A DNA stretch of 64,000 nt, from the IMG/VR virus record IMGVR_UViG_3300036766_001530; one strand, written 5' to 3'. This document shows, in pieces, positions 47,291-63,708 of the stretch. The notes under the pieces were generated by a model. It worked only from the letters and a program-made list of their open reading frames with translations. It was not told the origin of the DNA and did no database searches. Each line of letters begins with the position of its first letter. The first letter of the stretch is position 1. The stretch comes from an uncultured virus (IMG/VR IMGVR_UViG_3300036766_001530). Lineage: Duplodnaviria > Heunggongvirae > Uroviricota > Caudoviricetes. The translations under genes and the position numbers were made by a program.

Positions 47291-48247
47291 CTACTGTCGA
47301 CACTCGATCCCTACAATCTTGGCAAGATCCTCGTGAGACTCCATCACGGCACTGATTGAAGCGTCGTCACGAGCCAGGCCCCATCGTGAATCACCAATGA
47401 CCACCATGGCATGTACCGGCCCGTGCTGTTCAATGAAGGCTCGAAACTTTGCCCTGAAGATTGCGTCTTTAGCATTGAATGGATTTTTGATCTCGATCCA
47501 AACACCGCCAACGCGAAAATCCGGGCGGTACGTCGTACGGACGCCTCCCGCAAGAATGTCGAACACGGCCGGTTCATAGCTGTACTCCACCCCGCGCAGA
47601 TGCAACCAGCGGGCGAAGATGTACTCGTAGTGGCTGCGAACATAGTGACCAATGTCCTTGCGAAAACCTCCGTTGCCGGATCCGGCACGAGGACTCAGAG
47701 TGATGGTACCCAAGCTAAATCCGGCTCGCCTTGACTTCGACACCTTCCTACGAGAACTCTCGCTCAAGCGTCGGCCGAGTGCTGCTTGCCGATGTTTTTC
47801 GATCGTTGTAATGGACTGCTTTCGACCGGTGGCTGAGAGACGCGATCTCTCGCGGAGTCTTTTCGCCAGGTCGGGAGGATAGATGTCTTCGAGAGTTTTG
47901 CCTTTGTTACTCTTGCTGCGCCGCAATATAGCAGCCACTTGTCGAACTCTCGACCTCGGCCTCTCCCGAAGAGTCTTCTGGATCGAGGCTACCCGAGCCC
48001 TACGAGTTTCTTGCGACTGAACATACGGAGGAGATGTCAACGAAAACCTGCGGATCAACCTTCTTATGGTCTTGATCGTAACGCCAACCTTTACCGCAAT
48101 CTCCTCCTTTGAAAAGGTCAACAGCAGAACACGCAACTGTTCCTTCGATACAACCGGCTCGACCGTCGAAGGCTTGTGCCAGGTTCTCCCGCGAGAAGGA
48201 ATCGAGCCGCACCCACACAGACACAAAGAAGCGTTAACCCTTGACAC
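47291..48247 (-). CDS. Free-standing homing endonuclease-like protein (NUMOD3-like repeats + PD-(D/E)XK domain)
   Basis: CLCGCG, basic repeats (LGRRLSESSRRKVSKS), VRSHYE...YSYEP...YRPDF...WIEIK; visibly lower GC; overlaps the rtcB stop. Confidence 0.75.
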   Translation of the reverse strand: MSRVNASLCLCGCGSIPSRGRTWHKPSTVEPVVSKEQLRVLLLTFSKEEIAVKVGVTIKTIRRLIRRFSLTSPPYVQSQETRRARVASIQKTLRERPRSRVRQVAAILRRSKSNKGKTLEDIYPPDLAKRLRERSRLSATGRKQSITTIEKHRQAALGRRLSESSRRKVSKSRRAGFSLGTITLSPRAGSGNGGFRKDIGHYVRSHYEYIFARWLHLRGVEYSYEPAVFDILAGGVRTTYRPDFRVGGVWIEIKNPFNAKDAIFRAKFRAFIEQHGPVHAMVVIGDSRWGLARDDASISAVMESHEDLAKIVGIECRQ

Positions 48248-49463
48248 AAATCACCTGTTTCAGAGTATGCAAAACCTCCACAAGGTCGTCCTGCGCGAGC
48301 ATGATCGAGTCGATGTCTTTGTAAGCTCCCGGTGTCTCGTCCAGAACCGAATCATCCTTCCGGCACTCAACCCCCTCGGTGGCCTTCACGTGATCTTCGA
48401 CCGTGAAGCGCCGCCGGGCTTCGCCTCGCGACATCCGGCGGCCAGCGCCGTGCGAGCAGCTCATGAAGCTCTCGGGGTTCCCCTTGCCTCGGACGATGTA
48501 GCTCTTCGTACCCATCGAGCCCGGGATGATGCCGAGGTCGCCCGTGCGGGCGCGCACCGCGCCCTTACGTGTCACGATCACGTTCTGACCAAAGTGGTGC
48601 TCACGCTCGACGTAGTTGTGATGACACTGAATCGCCTCCTCCTTGAGCGAGAACGGCGGCAGCCGCGTCTGCTTGAGCGAGCGCACGACGGAATCGAGCA
48701 TGATCTCTCGGTTCGTCTTCGCGAAGTTCTGCGCCCAGGAGACCGCCTCGACGTAGTCGTCGAAGTGCTCGGTGCCTTCCGGCAGGTAGGCGAGATCCGC
48801 GTCCGGCAGGTTGATGAAGAAGCGGCTCATGTCCTCCTTCGCCAGCTCGATGAAGTAGGAACCGATCTTGTTCCCGACCCCGCGCGAGCCCGAGTGCAGC
48901 ATGATCCACACGTCGTTCGCTTCGTCGAGGCACAGCTCGATGAAGTGATTGCCCGTGCCGAGCGTGCCGAGATGAGCGGTCGTCCGGGGTCCGTGCTTGC
49001 CGGCGAGCTTCGGGTGCTTGCCGATGATGCGGCCGAGCCCGCCTTGCAGGCCCATCCAGGCCACCTCGACCTCGGTCGGGACCTTGTCGCCCCAGGCCCC
49101 GCGATCGTTGTCACCGCCGTTGTCGGTACGGCCGTGTGGCACCGCCTTCTCGATCGAGTCCCGAACGTGCTTGAGATCGTCGGGCAGGTCACTAGCATTT
49201 AGCGATGTACGAACTGCTACCATCCCACACCCGATGTCAACTCCCACCGCGGCTGGGATGATGGCCCCGAGCGTTGGGACCACGGAGCCAACGGTGGCGC
49301 CGATTCCCAAATGCACGTCAGCCATGGCTGCCACGTGGTGGAAAATGAAGGGCAGACTCGCGATGTTCTTGAGCTGCTGCTGCGCCTGCTCCTCGAAGTG
49401 GACGCCGTCGACCCAGGCCTTGATGGGCACACCCTTGTCCGGATGGAGCACGGTGACGCTCAT
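48234..49463 (-). CDS. rtcB: RNA 3'-phosphate/5'-OH ligase RtcB
   Basis: MADVHLGIGATVG, GVDIGCGM, GTLGTGNHFIE, LHSGSRG, CHHNY, RKGA, PGSMG, SCSHGAGR, DETPGAYK. Confidence 0.97.
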   Translation of the reverse strand: MSVTVLHPDKGVPIKAWVDGVHFEEQAQQQLKNIASLPFIFHHVAAMADVHLGIGATVGSVVPTLGAIIPAAVGVDIGCGMVAVRTSLNASDLPDDLKHVRDSIEKAVPHGRTDNGGDNDRGAWGDKVPTEVEVAWMGLQGGLGRIIGKHPKLAGKHGPRTTAHLGTLGTGNHFIELCLDEANDVWIMLHSGSRGVGNKIGSYFIELAKEDMSRFFINLPDADLAYLPEGTEHFDDYVEAVSWAQNFAKTNREIMLDSVVRSLKQTRLPPFSLKEEAIQCHHNYVEREHHFGQNVIVTRKGAVRARTGDLGIIPGSMGTKSYIVRGKGNPESFMSCSHGAGRRMSRGEARRRFTVEDHVKATEGVECRKDDSVLDETPGAYKDIDSIMLAQDDLVEVLHTLKQVICVKG

Positions 49464-53723: not shown

Positions 53724-53945
53724 TCAGAATCTCAAGTGCAAGGTCAGAACCGTTCCCTCAGAGACGTCGGCATCGAGCGGCCTCCCCAGCTCCAGCGCCA
53801 CCCCTTCTCTCCGCAGCTCCACCCCCTCCGGCAACTCGCCATCATCCGGGCTCCGAAGCATGCGCCCGATGACGTCCCGTGGCGTATCGCCTGGATGAAG
53901 CTCCAGATCCACTTCAAGTCCCTCGTGAAGCACGGTAATTTTCAT
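53724..53945 (-). CDS. Small ubiquitin-like (beta-grasp) protein
   Basis: MKITV...DLELHPGDTPRDVI...ELRREGVALE...VSEGTVLTLHLRF follows ubiquitin/YukD spacing. Confidence 0.45.
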   Translation of the reverse strand: MKITVLHEGLEVDLELHPGDTPRDVIGRMLRSPDDGELPEGVELRREGVALELGRPLDADVSEGTVLTLHLRF

Positions 53946-53977
53946 CGTCCGCAATTCGATGGTAATCTGTCCCGGCC

Positions 53978-54553
53978 ATGAGCGAAAGCGTGAGTCGCGA
54001 AGCGACGAACTCCGGTCCGGAATCCGGGCTTCTTCCGACTAGACGCGGCTTCCTCGGTGGTCTCCTGGCTCTCGCCGCCGCCGTCGCCCTCCCGTTCAAG
54101 AAGATCGCCGAGCGGCCGATCGAGACCATCCGCCGCATCCGGACGTCCGACTACGTCCGCTCTGGACGTCAGTACGTGCTCGGCTTCGAGCACGTCGAGG
54201 TCGAGCCGGGCGAGACGATCGAGCTGACGGTGCGCCCCCACCTCAACTTCGCTCCCGATCGACTCATCGTTCCGAGCTACCTGGCCGAGAACTTCACGAT
54301 CCTGGACATCATCATCGATCGCGAAAAGCAGTTCACCTCGACAGCCGAAGTACCCGCTTGCATCTTCGCCGAAAACGGCTTCGTCCCTGTCCTCTTCATG
54401 CGCCCGTGCCCGGCCGGCAACCCGATCACCATCAAGGTCAGAAACATCAGCCGGCAGCCGGCGGCCTTCGTCGCCGCGATGGCGGGTGAGTGCCTTGAGC
54501 CCGCGAATCACGAGGGTCCGACCCGCCCCGGGATGACGCCGGCCTACGTGTGA
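53978..54553 (+). CDS. Tat-signal-bearing protein
   Basis: TRRGFLGGLLALAAAVA twin-arginine motif; repeat in frame at the N-terminus and a repeat-derived TGA stop. Confidence 0.6.
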   Translation: MSESVSREATNSGPESGLLPTRRGFLGGLLALAAAVALPFKKIAERPIETIRRIRTSDYVRSGRQYVLGFEHVEVEPGETIELTVRPHLNFAPDRLIVPSYLAENFTILDIIIDREKQFTSTAEVPACIFAENGFVPVLFMRPCPAGNPITIKVRNISRQPAAFVAAMAGECLEPANHEGPTRPGMTPAYV

Positions 54554-54662
54554 GCGTGAGCTGCGAAGCAGCGAACTCCGCTCCGGCTCCGGGCTTCTTC
54601 CGGCCTCTGAAACTTTTTCCTTGACAGCTTCGTAGCCGCGGTTCACCGTGAATATGCTTTCA

Positions 54663-54845
54663 ATGACTTCTCTCGTCATACGCGAACGGCAAGCCTGGCA
54701 AGGAGCGTATCGCTCCTCAGCCGGGCATTCGTGCGTCCGCGTAGATCGCACGAGCGCACTGGGTACATTGGTCTCCATGAGGAAAGACCTTCGACCCTTC
54801 GCCCTCATCGAGACCAAGCAGAACCCGCGGAGGGAGCCTTCGTAG
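54663..54845 (+). CDS. Putative leader peptide of the tRNA array
   Basis: 60-codon ORF rich in otherwise rare codons (ATA, AGG, CGA, CAA, TCA, GTA, ACA, TTG); stop lies inside an antiterminator arm; start could be 54654. Confidence 0.6.
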   Translation: MTSLVIRERQAWQGAYRSSAGHSCVRVDRTSALGTLVSMRKDLRPFALIETKQNPRREPS

Positions 54846-54878
54846 AGAACCCAGACCCAGATCAGGTTCTACGAAGGC
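54836..54878 (+). promoter_or_regulatory. Antiterminator hairpin
   Basis: GCCTTCGTAG(AG)AACC 54836-54851 pairs with GGTTCTACGAAGGC 54865-54878, overlapping the terminator 5' arm. Confidence 0.7.
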
Positions 54879-54900
54879 CGCCCGGGAGGGTGGCCTTTTT
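54874..54900 (+). terminator. Intrinsic terminator upstream of the tRNA array
   Basis: AAGGCCGCCC-GGGA-GGGTGGCCTT stem followed by a T tract. Confidence 0.8.
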
Positions 54901-54970
54901 GCGTTTCTGGACACGAGCACGAAAGGAGGTTCCGACAACATGGACGCCAGCGACTATCGCTCCCACCTTC

Positions 54971-55060
54971 CGGTGGGTGCATCCGAGCGGCAAAGGGGCG
55001 TGGCTGTAAACCACGCGGTCCTCGCGACCTTCGTGGGTTCGAGTCCCACCCCACCGACCA
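54971..55060 (+). tRNA. trnY: tRNA-Tyr(GTA)
   Basis: Cloverleaf, loop CT-GTA-AA, long variable arm, GTTCGAGTCC, CCA. Confidence 0.9.
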
Positions 55061-55094
55061 TGGAAAGAAAACCCGGCGGCTCGCCACACGACGA

Positions 55095-55170
55095 GCCGTC
55101 AGCGCCCGACTGGACGGGCACCGGCCTTTTAAGCCGGCCTGAGGGAGTTCAAGTCTCCCTGACGGCACCA
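55095..55170 (+). tRNA. trnK: tRNA-Lys(TTT)
   Basis: CCGGC-CTTTTAA-GCCGG, CCA end. Confidence 0.85.
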
Positions 55171-55199
55171 GATTTCCCGTACTGCTTCGACGAGATCCC

Positions 55200-55272
55200 G
55201 GATCGGTAGCCAAGCTGGAAAGGCACCTGACTCTTAATCAGGCAACCGAGAGTTCGACCCTCTCCCGATCCA
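55200..55272 (+). tRNA. trnK: tRNA-Lys(CTT)
   Basis: CCTGA-CTCTTAA-TCAGG. Confidence 0.88.
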
Positions 55273-55296
55273 CCGAAAATGAAAGGAGGAACGACG

Positions 55297-55470
55297 ATGC
55301 CGAAGGCGAGAACATTCATCGACGACCGGAACACGATCGAGGTCGACGTGGTCGTCGGCCCCAGCTCGACGGGGCTCTGCAAGGTCGCCTACGGATCGCG
55401 CATCCTCGTCCGGCACAAGGATCGCCTCGAACCGCTCAACGAGGAGGCTCGCAGGATGCTCGGCAAGTAG
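55297..55470 (+). CDS. Small hypothetical protein within the tRNA array
   Basis: AAAGGAGG RBS, strong GC3 bias. Confidence 0.65.
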   Translation: MPKARTFIDDRNTIEVDVVVGPSSTGLCKVAYGSRILVRHKDRLEPLNEEARRMLGK

Positions 55471-55480
55471 CACGCAATGA

Positions 55481-55551
55481 TCCGGTCTCGTCCAACGGCA
55501 GGACACGCGCCTCTGGAGCGCGTTATCGGAGTTCGAGTCTCTGGACCGGAA
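55481..55551 (+). tRNA. trnQ: tRNA-Gln(CTG)
   Basis: CGCGC-CTCTGGA-GCGCG. Confidence 0.88.
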
Positions 55552-55655
55552 CGAAAAGAGAAAGGAGGAAGAACATGGTGACCGCAGCTCTCATCGTGAT
55601 CGCGTATCTCGCAGGCTACCAATCGGGCCGACTCCCCAGTCGTCGGCGCTGATTT

Positions 55656-55726
55656 TCGGGGATCGGTCAACGGCAGGCCAGCAGGCTTTGACCCTGTGAA
55701 TCTGGGTTCGAGTCCCAGTCCCCGAA
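55656..55726 (+). tRNA. trnQ: tRNA-Gln(TTG)
   Basis: GCAGG-CTTTGAC-CCTGT. Confidence 0.88.
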
Positions 55727-55895
55727 CTACACGAAGGGTCGCTCCCTCGTCGGATCTCTGACAAGTTAATAGGAAACGTCGTCGCGGTCGGACCCGCGCG
55801 CACGCGCACACCCGTGCGCGTCCAGCGTGGGAAGCCAGCCGACCGCAAATCACGTCCCCGGGCCCGCCTCATGAGGGTTGGTGCCGGGGACAACT

Positions 55896-55969
55896 GCCCC
55901 GTGTAGCTCACCTGGTAGAGCAATCGCCTGAAGAGCGATGGGTAGCCGGTTCAACTCCGGCCCGGGGCG
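55896..55969 (+). tRNA. trnF: tRNA-Phe(GAA)
   Basis: ATCGC-CTGAAGA-GCGAT. Confidence 0.88.
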
Positions 55970-56046
55970 CTCAAGTATCTGCGTGTAGCGCAGCGGACCG
56001 GTCGCCGGAGGCGAGCGGAATCCCCTCAGGTCCGGAAAGATCACAT

Positions 56047-56124
56047 CAGCGTGTAGCTCAGCCTGGCCAGAGCACTCGCCTCGGACGCGAGAGGCCGTTC
56101 GTTCAAATCGAACCACGCTGACCA
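56047..56124 (+). tRNA. trnP: tRNA-Pro(CGG)
   Basis: CTCGC-CTCGGAC-GCGAG, CCA. Confidence 0.9.
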
Positions 56125-56130
56125 AAGCAT

Positions 56131-56203
56131 GGGGGCGTAGCTCAGTGGTTAGAGCAGTCGGTCGATAACCGACAGGCCGCAAGTTCGAGTCTTGCCGCCC
56201 CTA
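56131..56203 (+). tRNA. trnI: tRNA-Ile(GAT), C33
   Basis: GTCGG-TCGATAA-CCGAC. Confidence 0.88.
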
Positions 56204-56353
56204 CTCCAGCGACACGAGCGTCTGCTCGTCGGGCCTACCAACCGATCGCGCCAGGGTGGGTAACTCCCCCGACTTGAGGCGCCGGCCGGGTCGAGCGATC
56301 GGGAACTGACCAGCAACGGTGGATGAGCCACGCTCGCGTCGCACTTTCCCCAG

Positions 56354-56593
56354 CTATCTGATCGCTAGCATCCCGGTCACGAACTCCTCGACTGTAATCT
56401 GGTGCAGGCTGCCCGAGGCAAACTCGATGTTCGCCTGCTTCTCCGAGAACGAGACCTTCAACCCGGCGCCCTGGGCGATGACGAGGGCCATCGCGATCCG
56501 GAGAGCTTCTCGAAGCTCAAGCGCGGAGCGGAGATCGGCTTCGAGAGCGAGCTGAAGGGTCCGCCGGAGCGAACCTTCGAGTTCCTTCGTCAT
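56354..56593 (-). CDS. Small hypothetical protein antisense to the tRNA array
   Basis: 79 aa ORF MTKELEGSLRR... filling the gap between tRNAs. Confidence 0.5.
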   Translation of the reverse strand: MTKELEGSLRRTLQLALEADLRSALELREALRIAMALVIAQGAGLKVSFSEKQANIEFASGSLHQITVEEFVTGMLAIR

Positions 56594-56640
56594 GCCAGGG
56601 TAGACGCTCCGAGATCGCTTCTTCTGACAGCAGTTTTTCT

Positions 56641-56715
56641 GGTGGCCGTAGCCAAGGGGTAAGGCAGCGGGTTGTGGCCCCGCCATCGTGGGTTCGATTC
56701 CCATCGGTCACCCCA
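56641..56715 (+). tRNA. trnH: tRNA-His(GTG)
   Basis: G-1, GCGGG-TTGTGGC-CCCGC, CCA. Confidence 0.92.
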
Positions 56716-56722
56716 CCATCAT

Positions 56723-56799
56723 CAGGGCGTAGCGCAGTCTGGTAGCGCGCTCGCTTTGGAAGCGAGAGGCCGCTGGTTCAAGTCCAGCCGCCCTGACCA
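56723..56799 (+). tRNA. trnP: tRNA-Pro(TGG)
   Basis: CTCGC-TTTGGAA-GCGAG, CCA. Confidence 0.92.
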
Positions 56800-56808
56800 C
56801 GAACGAGA

Positions 56809-56881
56809 GGGGCCGTAGCTCAACTGGGAGAGCGCTTCGTCGGCAACGAAGAGGCAGCCGGTTCGACTCCGGTCGGCTCCA
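56809..56881 (+). tRNA. trnA: tRNA-Ala(GGC), C33
   Basis: CTTCG-TCGGCAA-CGAAG; G3:U70 pair. Confidence 0.9.
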
Positions 56882-56888
56882 CGAACAT

Positions 56889-56960
56889 AGGCGGCGCGCA
56901 GGGCGCAGGCCGGTCTCCAAAACCAGCCATCGGAGAGTTCGAGTCTCTCGCCGCCTGCCA
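56889..56960 (+). tRNA. trnW: tRNA-Trp(CCA), shortened D arm
   Basis: Loop CTCCAAA, acceptor AGGCGGC/GCCGCCT, CCA. Confidence 0.75.
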
Positions 56961-57019
56961 TCTGGAAGGGCGTGAGCCGCGAAGCGGCGAACTCCGGTCC
57001 GAGTCCGATTCACATCCTC

Positions 57020-57103
57020 GGAAGGGTGGGGTAACGGTAGCCCTCCGGTCCCGAAAACCGGCCAGCCTAAACCGCTGTGCGAGTTCGATTCTCGCCCCTT
57101 CCT
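57020..57103 (+). tRNA. trnS: tRNA-Ser(CGA), C33
   Basis: CCGGT-CCCGAAA-ACCGG, long variable arm. Confidence 0.85.
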
Positions 57104-57118
57104 CAAGGTCTTCTTCTC

Positions 57119-57205
57119 GGAGAGGAGACGAATGTCGGTTAGTCGTAGCGGTTTGCTAAACCGCCGAGCCGCAAGGCTCCGAGGGTCCGACTCCCTCCCT
57201 CTCCT
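57119..57205 (+). tRNA. trnS: tRNA-Ser(GCT)
   Basis: GCGGT-TTGCTAA-ACCGC, long variable arm. Confidence 0.82.
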
Positions 57206-57220
57206 CCGTCAGATCAACCC

Positions 57221-57295
57221 GGCTCGGTAGCCAAGAGGCAAGGCAATCGCCTGCAAAGCGATCATCGTCGAGTTCAAATCTCACCCGAGCCTCCA
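57221..57295 (+). tRNA. trnC: tRNA-Cys(GCA)
   Basis: ATCGC-CTGCAAA-GCGAT, U73, CCA. Confidence 0.88.
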
Positions 57296-57514
57296 CGCGA
57301 GGAGCCAGTCATGAAGTGCATGGTCTGCAAGGGCCCGTTCCACCCGGCGAGCGGGCACGCCTGGTCCGAGGAAGCCGTCGTGTGCGGACCCTGCATCCGC
57401 CACTTCTACGAGTGGGTGCGCGGGCAGACTCACCCGAGACACCTGTGGAACGGCTCGAACTTCTATGTCGCAGCGGCAACGAGCATCCGAGCCCCGTCGT
57501 CAAAGTCTGATCGT

Positions 57515-57586
57515 GTGGATGTAGCTCAGCGGTAGAGCGCGGCCTTGCCAAGGCCGAGGTCGTGGGTCCGATCCCCATCATCCACT
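57515..57586 (+). tRNA. trnG: tRNA-Gly(GCC)
   Basis: CGGCC-TTGCCAA-GGCCG. Confidence 0.9.
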
Positions 57587-57599
57587 CCGACTCGCAAGT

Positions 57600-57629
57600 G
57601 CGGACGTGGCCGAGTGGTAAGGCGCCACC
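57600..57629 (+). pseudogene. 5' fragment of a tRNA truncated by the hairpin repeat
   Basis: GCGGACGTGGCCGAGTGGTAAGGCGCCACC (acceptor 5' strand + D arm) runs directly into GTGAG at 57630. Confidence 0.75.
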
Positions 57630-57690
57630 GTGAGTCGCGGAGCGACGAACTCCGCTCCGGCTCCGGCTCCGGCTCCGGTAGAATACAGGC

Positions 57691-57981
57691 ATGGATCTCG
57701 ACAAGCTCCGGACCGAGTGGCCGAAAGCGATCTACGTCGTCGTCACCGAGACTCCCGATGGTCAGCAGAATGTGCTCGCCCATGGCCGGTCGGTGTCCAT
57801 GCTCAGGGTCTCGATGCTGAAGAGCAACGAGGAGCGCAAGTGGAAGATCGTCCAGCTCCGGCAGCTTCCGACGGCTCTCGCGCGCAGGCGCGGGCGCATC
57901 AAGACCCTGGCCGAGATGCGGGCCGAGAACGATGCCGAAGAGCGCAACCGAATCGCCGCCCTCGCGAAACAGGACAAGTAG
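57691..57981 (+). CDS. Hypothetical protein (leaderless)
   Basis: TAGAAT 6 nt before ATG; strong GC3 bias. Confidence 0.7.
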   Translation: MDLDKLRTEWPKAIYVVVTETPDGQQNVLAHGRSVSMLRVSMLKSNEERKWKIVQLRQLPTALARRRGRIKTLAEMRAENDAEERNRIAALAKQDK

Positions 57982-57984
57982 CAC

Positions 57985-58056
57985 GCGCCGGTAGCTCAGC
58001 GGTAGAGCGCCAGGTTTCCACCCTGGATGTCGGGAGTTCGATCCTCCTCCGGTGCT
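57985..58056 (+). tRNA. trnG: tRNA-Gly(TCC)
   Basis: CCAGG-TTTCCAC-CCTGG. Confidence 0.88.
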
Positions 58057-58066
58057 CAAGCGACAC

Positions 58067-58138
58067 GCCCAAGTAGCTCAGCGGCAGAGCAGCGCTTTCG
58101 TAAAGCGCAGGTCGTCGGTTCAATCCCGACCTTGGGCT
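58067..58138 (+). tRNA. trnT: tRNA-Thr(CGT)
   Basis: GCGCT-TTCGTAA-AGCGC. Confidence 0.9.
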
Positions 58139-58139
58139 C

Positions 58140-58218
58140 TGCGGGGAGGGTGGACATAGTTCCCGAGCGGGCCTCATAAGCCTGCCCACGCCGGGTGCAA
58201 CGCCGGCCTCCGCTACCA
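58140..58218 (+). tRNA. trnM: tRNA-Met(CAT), initiator-like, atypical D and T arms
   Basis: CGGGC-CTCATAA-GCCTG, 1:72 mismatch, ACCA end. Confidence 0.65.
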
Positions 58219-58337
58219 TTCCTAGAAGACCGATCGGAGCGCGTGAGCCTCCTCGCCTCGCCCAGGTTCCCTTGATCAGAGGTTGGTCCTGGGTAGGGCG
58301 GGCTTCCACCCACTCCGCGCTCCGTCGGTCGAGTACG

Positions 58338-58607
58338 TCAGCTCCAACCTTCGAGCACCACGAACTCGTGGAAGCCACATCCCGGGTGCGGGCAGACGAC
58401 GGACGGCGAAGGCCGGCCGGAATCGTCGATTCGATGTTTCGCCAGCGGTGAGCCGCGGAGCGGCGAACTCCGCTCCGACTCCGAGTCCGAAGAGATGCGA
58501 TGGTTCGCAAGCGAGAACGGTCGATCACACGCAGGACAGACGCAGATCGCCGTCTTCACCATCCGAGGCTTGGTCGCACCGGGGTCCCAGACCGGCTCGA
58601 CGGACAT
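58338..58607 (-). CDS. Small Cys/His protein with an in-frame repeat insertion
   Basis: CPAC...LANHRI-[repeat]-LAKHRIDDSGRPSPSVVCPHPGCGFHEFVVLEGW; start uncertain. Confidence 0.6.
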   Translation of the reverse strand: MSVEPVWDPGATKPRMVKTAICVCPACDRPFSLANHRISSDSESERSSPLRGSPLAKHRIDDSGRPSPSVVCPHPGCGFHEFVVLEGWS

Positions 58608-58729
58608 CGACCAGGTGCCCGGGGCCGTCCGCACGCGCAAGATACTCGGCACCCTGCGAAACACGTTTCTCCGAACGTGAGCCGCGAAGCGGCGAACTCC
58701 TCTCCGGTCCGGTCCGGCCCGATCGAATT

Positions 58730-58802
58730 GCTGGCGTAGCTCAACTGGTAGAGCAGCCGATCTGTACTCGGCAGGTTGTGGGTTCGATGCCTGTCGCCAG
58801 CT
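58730..58802 (+). tRNA. trnT: tRNA-Thr(TGT), C33
   Basis: GCCGA-TCTGTAC-TCGGC. Confidence 0.88.
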
Positions 58803-58835
58803 CCGATTCCCGTAGATGAAGACCTCGGCCACCAT

Positions 58836-58925
58836 TCCAGGATAGCTCAACTGGCAGAGCGCCCGCCCGTTAAGCGGGATGCCCGAAAGGGGTTTCTGGG
58901 GGTTCGAGCCCCTCTCCTGGAGCCA
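58836..58925 (+). tRNA. trnN: tRNA-Asn(GTT), C33, long variable arm
   Basis: CCCGC-CCGTTAA-GCGGG, TCCAGGA/TCCTGGA acceptor, G73 CCA. Confidence 0.85.
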
Positions 58926-59540
58926 GCTCCACGGCGTAACCCATCCCGGCCGCGTTCGTGTATCATCCCACGCGGTGCCCGAGCACGACCACACGATCTC
59001 CTGTCTCGAAGAAGTCGAGGGCCAGCTCGTGTGCAAGGTCGACGCCCTCCGGAGGCCCATGACCGAATCCGAAGCCGACGCCCGAGCGAAGTCGCTCTGG
59101 GGCAACCGCGGCTTCGCCATCGAGATCGTCCCGGGCGTCTTCCGGGTCGGCTTCCATCGCCAGGGCAACCTCAGTGGCCGGCTCTCGACCACCAAGGGTG
59201 AGGGGACGAGCTTCGAGGAGGCCTTCGGCAGCTCGGGTGCTGAGGGCACCGAGAAGCTCCGCAAGGCCGGCGCCAAGGTCACGGTCGAGCAAGCTGAGGT
59301 CCTCCGCCGGCTCAGCACGGGAGCAGGCCGGCTCATCAGGATACACGGCGGCTTCTGGACGACTCCGGAGATGCCGATGAAACCCGACCGCAAGGAGAAG
59401 GTCCCGCAGTGGTGGACCAGCGTCCAGACCGTCCGCGCGATGGAGCGCAAGGGTTGGCTCGATCGTGCCAACAGGCTCCCCGAGGAGTGGAAGGACGATC
59501 GCGTGCTCACCGAAGCTGGCAGAGAACTTCTCGGGCGATC

Positions 59541-60329
59541 ATGAGTGTCGACGTCCATAAGTACGTCGAGGCCAAGATTGGCGTGTGGATCAAGCGTCAG
59601 CTCTACGCCGCGAACCCGAGGCTCGGCACCTGTTGGAAGATCGTCCTGCGGCACATGAAGCCGGACGGCAGCGTCAGCGCCGATGTCCACACGTATCTGC
59701 TCGAAAGCGATCCAGCCCAGCTTCAGCCCGCCGATCTGGAGATCATCCTCGGCGAGATCGCCAACGCAGCCATCGCCCACGTCAACGTGCTTGCCGGCGT
59801 CCAGCGCTACGCCCTCTTCTCGTACTTCTCCCAGATCGACACTTCCCCGTCGTGCTTCCCCTTCCTGATCCAGAGCGAGAACCCGGCCCCGTACGAGCCG
59901 TCGTCGCGGATGATTCCTCCGGAGCCAACTCGCGAGTACGAGTCCTACCTCATTCTCCATCACACCCAGATCGGCGAGACATGCAGCCCGCTCTATGAAG
60001 TCGGCCACCTCCTGCCCGGAAATCGGTACTTCATAGAAGCAATCGCGGGCACGTACGTGGAAGCCCAGGTTCACGCTTTCTACGTCAGGCTCCAGTGGAT
60101 GCTAATCAGATTCCCGATGTGGGCGAGGAAAGGTCCCGAGTGGGAGCACTCGATCGAAAATCTCCGGCGATATGCAGTAAAGCACCTGCGACTGACTCCC
60201 GCTCGGGAGATCGCCAAGCACCCAGCGCTCGTCACCGATCTCGTTACCCTGTTCGGACGATCGAAAAACAAGGCCATCCGCAAGAAGCTGGCCACCATCC
60301 GGAAGATGAGCCGTCGAAGCGGCGAGTGA
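59541..60329 (+). CDS. Hypothetical protein ending in a nested repeat cluster
   Basis: MSVDVHKYVEAK...; stop TGA derives from the repeat at 60326. Confidence 0.6.
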   Translation: MSVDVHKYVEAKIGVWIKRQLYAANPRLGTCWKIVLRHMKPDGSVSADVHTYLLESDPAQLQPADLEIILGEIANAAIAHVNVLAGVQRYALFSYFSQIDTSPSCFPFLIQSENPAPYEPSSRMIPPEPTREYESYLILHHTQIGETCSPLYEVGHLLPGNRYFIEAIAGTYVEAQVHAFYVRLQWMLIRFPMWARKGPEWEHSIENLRRYAVKHLRLTPAREIAKHPALVTDLVTLFGRSKNKAIRKKLATIRKMSRRSGE

Positions 60330-60473
60330 GCCGCGAAGGTGAGCCGCGAAGGTGAGCCGCGAAGCGGCGAACTCCGGCTCCGGCTCCGGCTCCGTTTCAG
60401 TCTGTCCCTGTCGTCTAGCGTGAGCCGCGAAGCGGCGAACTCCGACTCCGGCTTCTGCTCCGATTCAATCTCT

Positions 60474-60548
60474 GTCCCTGTCGTCTAGCTGGCCCAGGAC
60501 GCTGCCCCCTCAAGGCAGAAACGTAGGGTCCGAATCCCTCCAGGGACG
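60474..60548 (+). tRNA. trnE: tRNA-Glu(CTC), C33
   Basis: CTGCC-CCCTCAA-GGCAG. Confidence 0.85.
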
Positions 60549-60602
60549 CCCAGCTCCCGTCGTCTACGTGAGCCGCGAAGCGGCGAACTCCGCTCCGATC
60601 AC

Positions 60603-60675
60603 GCTCCCATCGTCTACTGGCTAGGACCCGCGCCCTTCAAGCGCGAGAAGAGCGGATCGAAACCGCCTGGGAGCA
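60603..60675 (+). tRNA. trnE: tRNA-Glu(TTC), C33
   Basis: CGCGC-CCTTCAA-GCGCG. Confidence 0.85.
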
Positions 60676-60681
60676 CCTCAT

Positions 60682-60754
60682 GCGCTCGTAGCTCAGTGGA
60701 CAGAGCAGCGGCCTTCTAAGCCGCGGGTCGCTGGTTCGATCCCAGCCGAGCGCA
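60682..60754 (+). tRNA. trnR: tRNA-Arg(TCT)
   Basis: GCGGC-CTTCTAA-GCCGC. Confidence 0.92.
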
Positions 60755-60834
60755 CTTCGCCTTTTCCTTCCGGCCTTGTAGGAAGGTTGTGACCACCGAT
60801 CGCGCATGCCTCCCCGCCTTGTAGGGAGGGCCAA

Positions 60835-60913
60835 GCCCCCGTCGTCTAACTGGATAGGACACCTGGCTACGAACCAGGAGATTTTGCAGGTTCAACTCCT
60901 GCCGGGGGCACCA
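60835..60913 (+). tRNA. trnR: tRNA-Arg(ACG)
   Basis: CCTGG-CTACGAA-CCAGG, CCA. Confidence 0.9.
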
Positions 60914-60914
60914 A

Positions 60915-60987
60915 GCCAGCGTAGCTCAGAGGCCAGAGCGGCCGGTTCATATCCGGCGGGTCATCGGTCCGAATCCGATCGCTGGTA
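60915..60987 (+). tRNA. tRNA with CAT anticodon (elongator Met or Ile2)
   Basis: GCCGG-TTCATAT-CCGGC. Confidence 0.8.
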
Positions 60988-61060
60988 CGAAGAACGGGGT
61001 GTAGCGCAGAGTGAGTCGCGAAGCGACGAACTCCGGTCCGGAGGTCCGGACGCTAATATA

Positions 61061-61134
61061 CGGGGTGTAGCGCAGTCAGGCAGCGCGCGTGTTCGGGGAA
61101 CACGAGGTCGCGGGTTCGAGTCCCGCCACTCCGA
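61061..61134 (+). tRNA. trnP: tRNA-Pro(GGG), C33
   Basis: CGTGT-TCGGGGA-ACACG; flanked by repeats on both sides. Confidence 0.88.
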
Positions 61135-61188
61135 CGTGAGCCGCGAAGGTGAGTCGCAAAGCGACGAACTCCGCTCCGGTCCGATCGT

Positions 61189-61278
61189 GGAGAGATGCCC
61201 GAGTGGTAAGGGGCCTGGTTGGAAGCCAGAAGCCGACCGGAGACGGTCGCGCGAGTTCGACTCTCGCTCTCTCCTCCA
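61189..61278 (+). tRNA. trnS: tRNA-Ser(GGA)
   Basis: Loop TTGGAAG, long variable arm, CCA. Confidence 0.88.
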
Positions 61279-61477
61279 AGTAGAATAGCGGGGACCGCCG
61301 ACCCTGGTTCCCCAAGACGAGCCCGAGTCGGAGATGGTCTCTGGCCCCGGGATCGACTTCTTTCCCAGGATCGGCGGTCGCTTAGCGAGTGGTGAACCGC
61401 TCCAGTCCAAGCAACAGCCAGCACCATGTCAGACACGGTGCTTGACAAAATGTAATACGTCTGATATTCGAGAGGCG

Positions 61478-61771
61478 ATGCCTACCGTCAGCCGCTTCCT
61501 GGGCCTCACGATCGCCATATTCGCGGGAGATCACGGCGTCCCACACATCCACGCCAGGCGCGGAAGCTACGGACGCCGGGGACGTGGTGGTGCTGGAATG
61601 CGGATGGGCGTCTTCGACATGCGCACTGGAACGATGATGGAAGGCGATCTGGATGCCGTGGACTCTGCTCGTGTCACAGCTTGGGTTTCGATCAGACAGA
61701 AGGAGTTGATGGAAGATGCGCAGCTCGTCATCGAAGGAAAGAAAGTCAAGAAGATCGATCCGCTTCGTTGA
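61478..61771 (+). CDS. DUF4160-family protein (putative toxin of a DUF4160/DUF2442 pair)
   Basis: MPTVSRFLGLTIAIFAGDHGVPHIHA...W...RQKELME...KIDPL. Confidence 0.85.
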   Translation: MPTVSRFLGLTIAIFAGDHGVPHIHARRGSYGRRGRGGAGMRMGVFDMRTGTMMEGDLDAVDSARVTAWVSIRQKELMEDAQLVIEGKKVKKIDPLR

Positions 61772-62042
61772 GGTCAAGGATGTGCGAGCCGTCGGAGAAT
61801 ACCGGCTCGAACTCCTCCTCACGGACGGATCGCTCATCGAGCGCGATCTGAGCCAGTTCGTTGCGAAGCATGCCGTCGGACTTCGTTCGCGGCTCAGAGA
61901 TCCGAAGTTCTTTCGCCGGGCTCGGCCGGGCCTCGGCACCGTCGTCTGGTCAAGAGACGTCGACATCTGCCCCCACATGCTCATCTGGCAAAAATTCCCG
62001 ACGCCAACCAGGGGGCGTCCGCGAAAATTCGCTGTTGTTTAG
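61716..62042 (+). CDS. DUF2442-family protein (putative antitoxin); start uncertain
   Basis: VKDVRAVGEYRLELLLTDG...DL...LRDPKFF...GTVVW..DVDICP. Confidence 0.8.
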   Translation: MRSSSSKERKSRRSIRFVEVKDVRAVGEYRLELLLTDGSLIERDLSQFVAKHAVGLRSRLRDPKFFRRARPGLGTVVWSRDVDICPHMLIWQKFPTPTRGRPRKFAVV

Positions 62043-62053
62043 GCGGAACCAAG

Positions 62054-62287
62054 ATGCGCATCACAAGAGATGATCTCCAACCCAAGAAGTCCAAGACGGT
62101 TACGATTCGAGTTCAAGCATCCGTCCTGAAGAAGCTCAAGTCAGAAGCTCGTTCCCTCGGAATAGGCCACACGAGCTTGGCTCGGGTGATTCTGGAAAAG
62201 TGGGTGGATGGGTTGGCTGCAAGCCGCCCCCTCAACTCTTCACGCGCGTCGTCTAGCGGCCAAGGCCCCTCGTCGACAACGAGGTGA
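62054..62287 (+). CDS. CopG/RHH-type antitoxin-like protein
   Basis: KSKTVTIRVQASVLKKLKSEARSLGIGHTSLARVIL; 3' end overlaps tRNA-Val. Confidence 0.7.
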   Translation: MRITRDDLQPKKSKTVTIRVQASVLKKLKSEARSLGIGHTSLARVILEKWVDGLAASRPLNSSRASSSGQGPSSTTR

Positions 62288-62314
62288 TCGGCAGTTCGAG
62301 TCTGCCCGCGCGTA
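62242..62314 (+). tRNA. trnV: tRNA-Val(GAC), C33
   Basis: CCTCG-TCGACAA-CGAGG; ACGCGCG/CGCGCGT acceptor. Confidence 0.85.
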
Positions 62315-62320
62315 CTCCGA

Positions 62321-62367
62321 TCTCGTGTAGCTCAACCGGTGCAGAGCATCGTCCCCAAAGACGAAGG
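62321..62367 (+). pseudogene. 5' two-thirds of a tRNA truncated by the hairpin repeat
   Basis: GTAGCTCAACCGGTGCAGAGC D arm and TCGTC/GACGA stem, then GTGAG at 62368 in place of the T arm. Confidence 0.7.
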
Positions 62368-62408
62368 GTGAGTCGCGGAGCGACGAACTCCGCTCCGGTC
62401 CGGATCAA

Positions 62409-62481
62409 ACGAGCGTAGCTCAGCGGCTAGAGCGTCCGCCCCACACGCGGAAAGTCGAGGGTTCAAGTCCCTCCGCTCGTA
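62409..62481 (+). tRNA. trnV: tRNA-Val(CAC), C33
   Basis: TCCGC-CCCACAC-GCGGA. Confidence 0.88.
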
Positions 62482-63588
62482 CTAGCCCCGCAGCGCCTTC
62501 CGCGCCGCCATGCGAGCGCCCATCGTGTCACCGGCCTGGTAGCGAGACAGTCCCTCACGACCTTGATCGGTGATCGTGACCTTCACCAGCCTCGGCTGCC
62601 GCTCGCCCCCGAAGCTCGGCTCGTTCAGGAAGTCCCACGTCGCCATGTTCCGACCCTTGAGATCGCAAGCCGTGTAGTAGGTCGACATGTCCACGTCCTG
62701 GTAGACGTGCTCGCCACCTTTGTTGACGAGATCCGCGAGCAGCTCGGCCTGCTTCTTCGAGACCGGCTTCGGTGGTGGGAGAGGCTTCGCCGGCTTCGCT
62801 CCTCGACGAGCCGTGGGTGGAGGAGGTGGAAGACCCTGGGAGGAAGCGAGCTGACGCCGCACGTAGTCGAAGTAGCTCGGCTTGGTCGCACCACGAATCG
62901 TCGTGAACATCATCATGGGCCGCTGATGTTCGAGCCAGGCGAGGAGTGTTGCTCCGGGGCGATTGGCCCCAGCGGGCGCCGGCAACGATCGCAAGAGCTT
63001 CTGCGTCGCCTCCGAGTAGTACCAGGCTCGGCCCTCTGCCACCTGCGAGACCTGCGGCTCGGGTAGACGGCCGAGCTTCTCTGGCGAGTAGATCCAGGTT
63101 GCGGTGCGACCACCAAGCACCTTGATGTCACTCTCCAGGCCGGAAATCTGAGTCTTGGTCGCGTGTTTCTTCGTCTCGACCGCCGCTTCCCAGCTCTGGC
63201 AGTAGCCGCTGCCGTACTCGCCCTTCCAGCCCGGGCTGATCGCGATGCTCTTGGTCGGCCGCTTCCCTCCCCACTCCCTCTTTCGAGTCGGATCGGCAAC
63301 GTCGATGTAGAGGGACGTCACACGACCTGCGTTCAGATCCGCGAGGTACTGCCGCTCATTCACGAGCCAGGCTTCGAGCTTGCCCTTCCAGTGCTTCGTG
63401 AACTCGCACGACAGCTCGAACGGTAGGTGCCCTTCTCCAGCGCAACGCCCGACCGTCTCGCCCGTCCCAGGTCGCCGATACCCGTGCAGGACCAGCACCG
63501 GATCTTTCGAGCGAGCTTTCGGCTTGACGATTTGCTGTCGGAGGCAGGCCTGACAGGTGCCCTGGAACCGCTTGTCATCGTCGCTCAT
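62482..63588 (-). CDS. Hypothetical protein (leaderless) inserted antisense in the tRNA array
   Basis: GTCQAC...LHGY...GRCAG; TGG-TAGCGT 6 nt before ATG. Confidence 0.7.
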   Translation of the reverse strand: MSDDDKRFQGTCQACLRQQIVKPKARSKDPVLVLHGYRRPGTGETVGRCAGEGHLPFELSCEFTKHWKGKLEAWLVNERQYLADLNAGRVTSLYIDVADPTRKREWGGKRPTKSIAISPGWKGEYGSGYCQSWEAAVETKKHATKTQISGLESDIKVLGGRTATWIYSPEKLGRLPEPQVSQVAEGRAWYYSEATQKLLRSLPAPAGANRPGATLLAWLEHQRPMMMFTTIRGATKPSYFDYVRRQLASSQGLPPPPPTARRGAKPAKPLPPPKPVSKKQAELLADLVNKGGEHVYQDVDMSTYYTACDLKGRNMATWDFLNEPSFGGERQPRLVKVTITDQGREGLSRYQAGDTMGARMAARKALRG

Positions 63589-63628
63589 GGGCACACGCTA
63601 CCAGAAGTAGAGCCTTGCATCACCACTT

Positions 63629-63708
63629 GGAGCCGTAGGGGAGCCAGGCCGTCCCCGCTGGTCTGTCACACCAGAGATCGCTGGGTTCAAATCCCGCCGG
63701 CTCCGCCA
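63629..63708 (+). tRNA. trnD: tRNA-Asp(GTC)
   Basis: CTGGT-CTGTCAC-ACCAG, GCCA end. Confidence 0.88.

What the first reader, a model, noticed from the sequence alone, without database searches (positions are those of the whole stretch)
54663..54900. Leader-peptide attenuator gating a 31-tRNA array: probable translation-stress sensor
Seen: a 60-codon ORF with atypical, diverse codons ends with TAG inside the 5' arm of a 14 bp hairpin (54836-54878) that is mutually exclusive with an intrinsic terminator (54874-54900), 70 nt before the first tRNA. Established logic (trp-type and whiB7 uORF attenuation): a ribosome reaching the stop blocks the antiterminator so the terminator forms; stalling allows read-through. 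Inference: the array is switched on when any of many host tRNAs is depleted or cleaved.
Basis: partly seen in the sequence, partly recalled or inferred. Interest (0 to 1): 0.82.

Follow-up and report, generated by a model that had tools for sequence, protein, structure and literature searches.

The report
Codon-sampling switch before tRNA array
A tiny reading frame that uses all 20 amino acids and an unusually wide range of codons ends inside an RNA stop/go switch just ahead of 30 tRNA genes on a large phage- or plasmid-like element, so these spare tRNAs are probably made when ribosomes struggle to decode; the same layout sits before tRNA arrays on plasmids of cultured bacteria, where it can be tested.

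Summary
Observation largely confirmed. The 60-codon ORF (54663-54845) uses all 20 amino acids, 45 codons and 40 of 45 decoding classes (composition null about 1e-4). It is the most codon-diverse frame in the 64-kb window; the other two frames on the same DNA are ordinary. Its stop lies in an antiterminator whose 3' arm takes the lower 6 nt of the terminator's 5' arm, 70 nt before 30 same-strand tRNA genes. Caveats: no Shine-Dalgarno, start site unresolved, thin energy margin, no full-length homologue. New here: the same design, with unrelated sequence, precedes tRNA arrays on plasmids of cultured Micrococcaceae and Burkholderiales; 8 of 10 such leaders keep all 20 amino acids and 2 keep 19, against 21 of 1486 control windows. 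Best reading: a whiB7-type ribosome-dependent transcription attenuator that senses broad decoding failure and switches on spare tRNAs (confidence 0.68; nothing tested at the bench). Ten paper searches found no account of this control for tRNA genes. This scan noted the same design before on other DNA (phages, one Pirellulaceae array). New variant of a known kind.

The parts
54621..54626 (+). Perfect sigma-70-type -35 hexamer (TTGACA) behind a T-rich tract; candidate promoter of the leader
   Evidence: Seen in sequence. The promoter scan did not call it because the -10 at 17 nt matches only 2 of 6. Function inferred.
54644..54658 (+). Two candidate -10 hexamers (54644-54649, 17 nt from the -35; 54653-54658, 26 nt from it), each 4 nt before an in-frame ATG. 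Transcription start unresolved; a leaderless or near-leaderless start is inferred.
   Evidence: Sequence. No SD-like pairing before 54648, 54654 or 54663 (-2.4 to +0.3 kcal/mol) against -7.6 to -11.6 before four of five other starts tested.
54663..54845 (+). Leader ORF, 60 codons (63 from ATG 54654, 65 from GTG 54648): 20 amino acids, 45 codons, 40 of 45 decoding classes
   Evidence: No protein family or homologue.
54693..54726 (+). Hairpin 1 inside the ORF (role unknown: pause, insulation or stability)
   Evidence: (54690-54800 z -5.0)
54731..54759 (+). Hairpin 2 inside the ORF (weaker, interior not well defined)
54768..54817 (+). Hairpin 3 inside the ORF, ending just before the switch
   Evidence: -20.5 kcal/mol, z -4.6, 0 of 200 shuffles
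54836..54878 (+). Antiterminator, 10 + 4 pairs; 5' arm holds the last codons and the stop of the ORF
   Evidence: An 11-nt perfect complement to the terminator's 5' arm arose in 2 of 5000 shuffles of the leader and in 0 of 18 look-alike terminators (best 9 nt).
54873..54906 (+). Intrinsic terminator: stem 54873-54898 (8 pairs before the U tract, 11 with A-U and G-U extension), tail U5-GCG-UUU
   Evidence: No listed change at 54873-54912 in a roughly 90% identical relative (run X4, record 22). Between 54900 and 64000 the scan found only one weak + strand terminator-like site, at 61335.
54921..55209 (+). Strong SD plus ATG 54940; 89-codon frame running through the first two tRNA genes (role unknown)
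   Evidence: -11.6 kcal/mol. A 2-nt insertion is listed within it in X4, so its length is probably not kept.
54971..63708 (+). tRNA array: 30 called genes for 19 amino acids (no Leu called), with small ORFs, tRNA fragments and repeat insertions; may run past the window end

Best explanation
A ribosome-dependent transcription attenuator that samples general decoding health and gates a spare tRNA array. Step 1 (inferred): RNA polymerase starts near 54654-54665 and a ribosome loads on the leader ORF, probably at or near the 5' end. Step 2 (sequence shown, role inferred): codons 1-55 present every amino acid and 40 of 45 decoding classes, so shortage, cleavage or undercharging of almost any tRNA, or a ribosome inhibitor, slows the ribosome somewhere in this stretch. 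Step 3 (folding model): a ribosome that keeps pace and reaches codon 56 to the stop covers 54836-54855, so the antiterminator cannot form, the terminator folds and transcription ends near 54902. Step 4 (folding model plus kinetic inference): a ribosome stalled earlier lets the antiterminator form first; only a 5-pair stub of the terminator remains when polymerase crosses the U tract, so it reads on into the 9-kb array. The result is negative feedback: poor decoding makes more tRNA. The peptide itself is probably without function.
For: Frame-specific diversity: of 127,636 60-codon windows in six frames, all 30 with >=45 distinct triplets lie at this locus, in this frame or its mirror on the other strand; the two other + frames give 37 and 35. 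Decoding classes 40 of 45 on the + strand (P about 1e-4) against 35 in the mirror frame; even given 45 codons, 40 classes has P 0.016-0.018, and all 16 C/U-ending classes are present. Highest score of 1562 short ORFs in the window and 12 loci (z 3.5, next 2.35). Switch geometry. One relative keeps the terminator unchanged over 40 nt while the next 57 nt carry 8 substitutions and 4 indels; its listed changes in the antiterminator remove the bulge and leave, by my hand count, 13 pairs. Recurrence: five Micrococcaceae plasmid leaders with conserved SD-like motif, ATG, frame and stop-before-terminator position, peptides 36-88% identical, 20 amino acids in 4 of 5; five Burkholderiales plasmid leaders, 20 amino acids in 4 of 5; control 21 of 1486. 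Precedent: the whiB7 uORF of M. smegmatis has every amino acid but Cys and its codon content sets which starvation induces read-through (PMC10274678, passages). The Anabaena tRNA array is silent until translational stress (PMC8421152, passages; PMC10272220, abstract).
Against: No SD and no clean promoter-to-start spacing, so translation of this ORF is unproven. The energy margin is thin: antiterminator plus stub -27.1 against inner antiterminator plus full terminator -26.0 kcal/mol; at equilibrium the terminator base wins without a ribosome once 54895 is free (0.83-0.91). No homologue spanning the ORF was obtained, so frame conservation and covariation are untested for this leader. In X4 the one listed substitution in the switch (54870) breaks a pair and no compensating change is listed; the table is cut and the site lies near the contig end. 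Codon-class diversity above chance holds in the window, L091, L087 and L093 (z 2.5-3.8) but not in L094-L098 (z 0.8-1.8) or L100 (negative), so isoacceptor-level sensing is not general. Strong hairpins inside the ORF are not explained by the model. The all-20 design was not found at array starts in 15 phage loci or in the Bifidobacterium plasmid.
Confidence: 0.68

Rival explanations
1. It is a ribosome-coupled attenuator, but the working signal is general loss of translation or coupling (antibiotics, initiation block, host shut-off). Codon-specific stalls from tRNA loss matter little and the codon range is a by-product of many drug-specific stall contexts.
For: E. coli toiL responds to five antibiotic classes by stalls at different codons (PMC12121999, abstract). 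whiB7 and the Anabaena array both respond to ribosome antibiotics. The switch gives the same output for any ribosome absent from codons 56-61.
Against: Missing codons are mostly synonymous C/U partners, which fits sampling of tRNA species (P 0.016-0.018). Rare residues (W, C, H, Y, F, N) each occur once here and the full set is kept in diverged plasmid leaders.
Confidence: 0.14
2. The leader is an untranslated structured RNA. Read-through is set by a protein antiterminator, a modified polymerase or fixed folding kinetics, and the terminated 250-nt RNA may act by itself.
For: The leader folds strongly (z -4.4) with three hairpins inside the ORF. No SD. An open 60-codon frame is common by chance (28%).
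Against: An untranslated RNA gives no reason for triplet diversity in one frame only (45 against 37 and 35; such an excess occurs in 0.03% of windows). The tRNA-rich array, also structured, averages 34 and never reaches 45. No Rfam family. The stop codon falls inside the antiterminator arm.
Confidence: 0.12
3. An ordinary small protein gene with an ordinary terminator, or the back of a minus-strand gene; the array has its own promoter and the switch is a coincidence.
For: Minus-strand ORFs overlap the region (54717-54941 and 53942-54817). Small orphan genes are common in this element.
Against: Codon use is unlike the element's genes (adaptation index 0.44 against 0.70; 4 of 104 gene windows as low). 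No promoter-like site between terminator and first tRNA. Among 18 look-alike terminators none had a complement of 10 nt or more or an upstream ORF above 38 codon types. Class coverage points to the + strand.
Confidence: 0.06

Closest known systems
whiB7/wblC uORF transcription attenuator of Actinobacteria (PMC10274678, passages read)
   Same: Long, compositionally broad uORF; efficient translation gives a Rho-independent terminator, stalling gives an antiterminator and read-through; responds to lack of many amino acids.
   Different: Output there is a transcription factor, here a tRNA array on a mobile element. The whiB7 uORF is alanine-enriched and lacks some residues; this one has all 20 and near-complete decoding-class coverage. 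No sequence comparison with whiB7 leaders was run.
Leader-peptide attenuators of amino-acid operons (E. coli trp, leu; described in passages of PMC10274678; further detail recalled)
   Same: Same ribosome-position logic and overlapping antiterminator/terminator.
   Different: Those leaders are short and rich in one or a few amino acids; this one has no run of control codons and maximises variety.
Long tRNA arrays (L-arrays); Anabaena PCC 7120 trn operon (PMC8421152 passages; PMC10272220 abstract)
   Same: Horizontally spread array of 26-43 tRNAs, silent until translational stress, co-regulated with rtcB and an endonuclease gene; here RtcB (48234-49463) and an endonuclease-like gene (47291-48247) lie 5-8 kb away on the other strand.
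   Different: Anabaena uses the repressor TrcR at the promoter; the words 'attenuat', 'leader' and 'terminat' do not occur in PMC8421152. Here control appears to act after initiation.
E. coli toiL uORF of topAI-yjhQ (PMC12121999, abstract and outline)
   Same: One uORF senses many translation stresses by stalls at different positions.
   Different: toiL acts on a ribosome-binding site and Rho-dependent termination of a protein gene, not on an intrinsic terminator before RNA genes.
T-box riboswitches (PMC2494555, passages)
   Same: Terminator/antiterminator switch that reports tRNA status.
   Different: T-boxes bind one uncharged tRNA directly. No T-box family match or motif here.
Phage tRNA supplementation against retron-Eco7 and PrrC (PMC11555353, passages)
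   Same: Gives the likely benefit: high expression of element-encoded tRNA offsets tRNA-destroying defences.
   Different: The passages read describe a strong promoter, with no sensing switch.

Membership tests
Ribosome-dependent transcription attenuator (trp/whiB7 type) | Short ORF in the leader upstream of an intrinsic terminator | tested here: met
   stop ends 27 nt before the terminator stem begins
Ribosome-dependent transcription attenuator (trp/whiB7 type) | Antiterminator that overlaps the terminator and is covered by a ribosome at the ORF end | tested here: met
   overlap is 6 nt and the margin about 1 kcal/mol, in folding models only
Ribosome-dependent transcription attenuator (trp/whiB7 type) | ORF under selection for sensing codons | tested here: met
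   Frame- and strand-specific diversity
Ribosome-dependent transcription attenuator (trp/whiB7 type) | Translation initiation signal (SD or leaderless start) | tested here: inconclusive
   No SD; leaderless start possible but the start site is unmapped
Ribosome-dependent transcription attenuator (trp/whiB7 type) | ORF and pairing conserved in homologues | tested here: inconclusive
   Only partial relatives for this leader; met in two analogous plasmid families that are not homologous to it
Ribosome-dependent transcription attenuator (trp/whiB7 type) | Read-through depends on ORF translation | not testable with these tools
   Needs reporter or RNA-end data
whiB7/wblC leader (as a family member) | Lies upstream of a whiB7/wblC gene | tested here: not met
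   Downstream are tRNA genes; the small array ORFs scanned had no WhiB family match
T-box riboswitch | Rfam T-box match and T-box motif in the antiterminator bulge | tested here: not met
   No match at gathering score or at E<=5; the recalled core motif with one mismatch does not occur in 54560-54970
Long tRNA array (L-array) | Long, non-periodic, same-strand tRNA cluster on a mobile element | tested here: met
   30 + strand tRNAs over 8.7 kb; neighbours are phage- or plasmid-type genes
TrcR-controlled trn operon | TrcR direct repeats over the -10 box and start site | not tested
   The motif was not searched; the described system is cyanobacterial

The most novel reading that the evidence does not exclude
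Mobile tRNA arrays across phyla, on phage-like elements and on megaplasmids of cultured Actinobacteria and Betaproteobacteria, have repeatedly evolved a 'genetic-code pangram' leader. This one goes further and tests nearly every tRNA isoacceptor class once, making it a general detector of host tRNA destruction (anticodon nucleases, toxins) that deploys a replacement tRNA set on demand. That would explain why such arrays look cryptic and would tie them to anti-defence.
Probability: 0.42. Interest if true: 0.86.

Novelty: new variant of a known kind. Interest (0 to 1): 0.7.

Why it matters
Why phages and plasmids carry large, often silent tRNA sets, and what turns them on, is an open question; the one worked-out case that I found (Anabaena) uses a repressor. 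A leader that converts any decoding failure into tRNA transcription would give a second, protein-free answer and would link these arrays to tRNA-targeting defences and antibiotics. The plasmid examples (Pseudarthrobacter chlorophenolicus A6 pACHL01, Variovorax sp. WDL1, Methylibium petroleiphilum PM1 RPME01, Polaromonas sp. P1-6) make the idea testable in cultured strains. The leader would also be a compact reporter of translation stress.

Tried and rejected
No whole genome is held for this window. Leader DNA found no homologue in viral contigs, phages (only the tRNA part matched), plasmids or earlier notes. The two neighbouring proteins found no related viral loci; one 79% identical protein exists without DNA context. 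The leader peptide had no homologue; the single hit is a 1229-residue tandem repeat, taken as chance. tRNA-based patterns found one unrelated phage with 3 tRNAs (L001), 45 Solirubrobacterales-type loci (6 of 45 checked, 1-2 tRNAs each) and nothing in metagenome or further viral scans. RtcB relatives gave 5 loci, 2 with small tRNA groups and no such leader. The repeat pattern found 5 single-copy metagenome loci, none with an array. No RNA holder was listed, which says nothing on expression. Small shares X5 and X6 were not used for habitat; uncovered parts prove nothing. The design scan covered 21 loci; 3 were dropped for having fewer than 3 tRNAs (L088, L090, L092); 33 array starts in the other 18 gave 2 clear cases (L087, L091). 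The terminator finder was too strict and missed the window's own terminator, so its blanks are weak; a relaxed look found a weak candidate in L099 with a roughly 80-codon, 20-amino-acid ORF (inconclusive, chance about 0.2) and none in L089, L053, L057, L084, L085. A family-wide genome search from L087 was not possible. T-box, known Rfam RNA and ordinary small gene were considered and rejected. Supplements of the papers were not read; array tables in those of PMC8421152 could bear on how common the design is.

Full report
Setting. The window is 64% G+C and evenly so. No genome is held for it. The contig that encodes the neighbouring protein is 118,938 bases long. Scans of 32 proteins against Pfam and 30 against PHROGs (overlapping sets) gave RtcB, ParB-like, kinase, endonuclease, phage zinc-finger and many unknown proteins, and no virion gene. 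I therefore call it a large phage- or plasmid-like element of unknown host. Pieces of it or of relatives lie in sediment metagenome runs X2, X3 and X4 besides the possible source run.

Observation. The ORF runs from ATG 54663 to TAG 54843-54845, 60 codons, with in-frame starts at 54654 and 54648. The hairpin 54836-54878 has 10 + 4 pairs and holds the stop in its 5' arm. The terminator stem is 54873-54898 with tail U5-GCG-UUU. The first of 30 ARAGORN tRNAs begins at 54971; all are on the + strand, up to 63708. The count of 31 needs an odd initiator-like gene at 58143-58219 that no tool called. No Rfam family other than tRNA reaches its threshold.

Is the ORF more than chance? Its openness is not: 28% of dinucleotide shuffles are stop-free. 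Its content is. Prompted by earlier scan notes on all-20-amino-acid leaders, I counted 20 amino acids and 45 codons. Random stop-free frames of equal composition reach 45 codons with P about 0.001 and both marks with P 0.0003; 0 of 5000 shuffles and 0 of 5381 windows of 24 likely genes do so; it is the only one of 62 ATG-led ORFs of 55-70 codons with 20 amino acids. Of 127,636 windows of 60 triplets, all 30 with 45 or more types are at this locus, in this frame or its mirror; the other two + frames give 37 and 35, an excess seen in 0.03% of 63,817 positions. Merging C- and U-ending codons into 45 decoding classes gives 40 on the + strand (P about 1e-4) and 35 in the mirror frame. Given 45 codons, 40 classes still has P 0.016-0.018. 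The structured tRNA region averages 34 and peaks at 44, so RNA structure alone does not explain it. I read this as selection on what the ribosome must decode, on the + strand.

The switch. An 11-nt perfect complement to the terminator's 5' arm arose in 2 of 5000 leader shuffles. Among 18 look-alike terminators from viral contigs the best was 9 nt, none had an upstream ORF above 38 codon types and none had tRNAs. The two structures share only 54873-54878. Antiterminator plus the top 5 terminator pairs gives -27.1 kcal/mol; the inner antiterminator plus the full terminator gives -26.0. With RNA free up to 54893, roughly what is available as polymerase crosses the U tract (hybrid length from general knowledge), the antiterminator pairs have probability 0.95-1.0; with 54826-54855 masked the terminator pair forms at 0.95. 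Against the model, once 54895 is free the terminator base wins at equilibrium even without a ribosome (0.83-0.91); read-through then needs the earlier-formed antiterminator to outlast the pause, which I could not simulate. A ribosome mask abolishes the antiterminator from codon 56-57 on, and all 20 amino acids and all 40 classes occur in codons 1-55. Between 54900 and 64000 only one weak + strand terminator-like site was found, so this is the main gate of the array.

Weakest link. There is no SD before any of the three starts (-2.4 to +0.3 kcal/mol), while four of five other starts tested give -7.6 to -11.6. A perfect -35 hexamer sits at 54621, but the -10 at 17 nt matches 2 of 6 and the better -10 lies 26 nt away; each is 4 nt before an in-frame ATG. 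A leaderless start is my inference.

Relatives. No full homologue was obtained. One 725-base contig of run X4 covers 54833-55552 with 46 other letters and 23 gap letters; 39 of the 46 are listed. None is listed at 54873-54912, while 54913-54969 has 8 substitutions and 4 indels. In the antiterminator, three single deletions and one insertion fall in the bulge and loop region and one substitution (54870) breaks a pair; by hand count 13 pairs remain. No change is listed at the stop codon, but the table is cut and the site is near the contig end. A contig of X3 covers 54530-54698 with 11 other letters and no gap. This is one informative relative, not a covariation test.

The design elsewhere. I scanned array starts in 21 fetched loci; 3 had fewer than 3 tRNAs and dropped out, leaving 33 starts in 18 loci. 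None of 15 phage loci showed the all-20 leader with terminator. Two of 3 plasmid arrays did: Paenarthrobacter YJN-5 (L087, 39 tRNAs in the locus) and Polaromonas P1-6 (L091, 19 tRNAs). These two were picked by the score, so they are leads; their homologues were then found by DNA similarity alone. Five Micrococcaceae leaders share an SD-like motif, the ATG, the frame and a stop 23-30 nt before a conserved terminator, with an overlapping antiterminator in each; ORFs are 50-52 codons, 36-88% identical, with 20, 20, 19, 20 and 20 amino acids. Five Burkholderiales leaders (L091, L097, L098, L101, L102) have 60-66 codons and 20, 20, 20, 19 and 20 amino acids. That is 8 of 10, against 21 of 1486 stop-free 50-codon control windows; members are related (two pairs are 88% identical) and the Burkholderiales ORFs are longer than the control windows (chance 0.05-0.10 each), so the count overstates independence. 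Two further plasmid arrays found through tRNA matches were partial or unclear: Burkholderia M701 (19 amino acids in 73 codons, terminator present, class diversity below chance) and Mycolicibacterium CBMA 213. Class diversity above chance holds only in the window, L087, L091 and L093. So the shared trait is amino-acid completeness; near-complete codon sampling is strongest here. The window's leader shows no peptide or DNA similarity to the nine of these leaders compared (12-25% identity, best blastn E 0.04 over 16 nt), and Rfam finds only tRNAs in 8 of these loci.

Mechanism. Shown by sequence and statistics: ORF content, switch geometry, position before the array, recurrence. Shown only in folding models: the ribosome-dependent choice. 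Inferred: translation, start site, kinetics, natural trigger. The model is negative feedback: smooth decoding ends transcription near 54902; a stall at any of 55 test codons lets it run into the array. Rivals are a sensor of general ribosome inhibition (0.14), an untranslated structured leader (0.12) and coincidence (0.06).

Comparison. It works like the whiB7 attenuator, whose M. smegmatis uORF holds every amino acid but Cys and whose codon content sets the inducing starvation (PMC10274678, passages), but it is not a whiB7 leader. The array is of the L-array kind, for which the Anabaena operon is induced by translational stress through a repressor (PMC8421152, passages; PMC10272220, abstract and outline). 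A survey of mycobacterial arrays does not mention promoters, leaders or attenuation (PMC5966550, word search and passages). toiL (PMC12121999, abstract and outline), T-boxes (PMC2494555, passages) and phage tRNA supplementation (PMC11555353, passages) are more distant. Ten searches (listings and abstract starts seen) showed no paper on leader-peptide attenuation of tRNA genes; the library lacks most subscription journals, and supplements were not read.

Within this scan the idea is not new: notes describe similar leaders before phage tRNAs and one Pirellulaceae array. They are unchecked and I do not count them as support; they gave me the all-20 test and the whiB7 paper, both checked here.

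Verdict.

Noticed in passing
whole window, e.g. 53990, 54556, 57630, 60352, 62368: A 25-nt repeat with a 4-pair stem and GRA triloop whose stem bases change in matched pairs: 46 copies at up to 2 mismatches, 44 on the + strand whatever the gene direction, 0 expected. It sits in frame inside genes (absent from the 79% identical P0002), follows or interrupts tRNA fragments (57600-57654, 60995-61035, 62320-62392) and is flanked by short duplications (60390-60495). It looks like a REP-type mobile DNA hairpin (label recalled and prompted by earlier notes). Single copies occur in 5 metagenome contigs; none in viral contigs.
   Followed up: partly
55784-55891: Two strong hairpins inside the array between tRNA-Gln and tRNA-Phe (-70.1 kcal/mol, z -4.8) with no Rfam match; candidate unknown small RNA.
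   Followed up: partly
58143-58219: tRNA-like gene with CAT anticodon and CCA end, not called by ARAGORN or Rfam; possible odd initiator tRNA.
   Followed up: partly
54921-55209: Strong SD and ATG right after the terminator; the frame runs through tRNA-Tyr and tRNA-Lys. It could protect the read-through RNA from Rho; untested.
   Followed up: no
54971-63708: No tRNA-Leu is called among the 30 genes, and two of the five decoding classes missing from the leader are Leu codons (CTA, TTA). The array may continue beyond the window.
   Followed up: no
46794-49463: RtcB tRNA ligase, an endonuclease-like gene and a Maf-like gene in one minus-strand run 5-8 kb upstream of the array.
   Followed up: no
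61442-62287: DUF4160, DUF2442 and CopG-like genes with their own TTGACA site inserted in the array.
   Followed up: no
L087, L093-L096 (terminator loop): The terminator loop of the five Micrococcaceae plasmid leaders is nearly invariant although it does not pair, which hints at a further binding partner.
   Followed up: no
L056:17030-17230 and L086:16230-16425: Both Lak phage arrays have a conserved 37-codon ORF (16 amino acids) and a terminator ending 24-26 nt before the first tRNA; possibly a related, narrower attenuator.
   Followed up: partly
L001:2658-2910: In another phage a good promoter is followed by tRNA-Asn, then a terminator-like hairpin in which a 61-codon ORF ends, then two more tRNAs; seen by eye only.
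   Followed up: no
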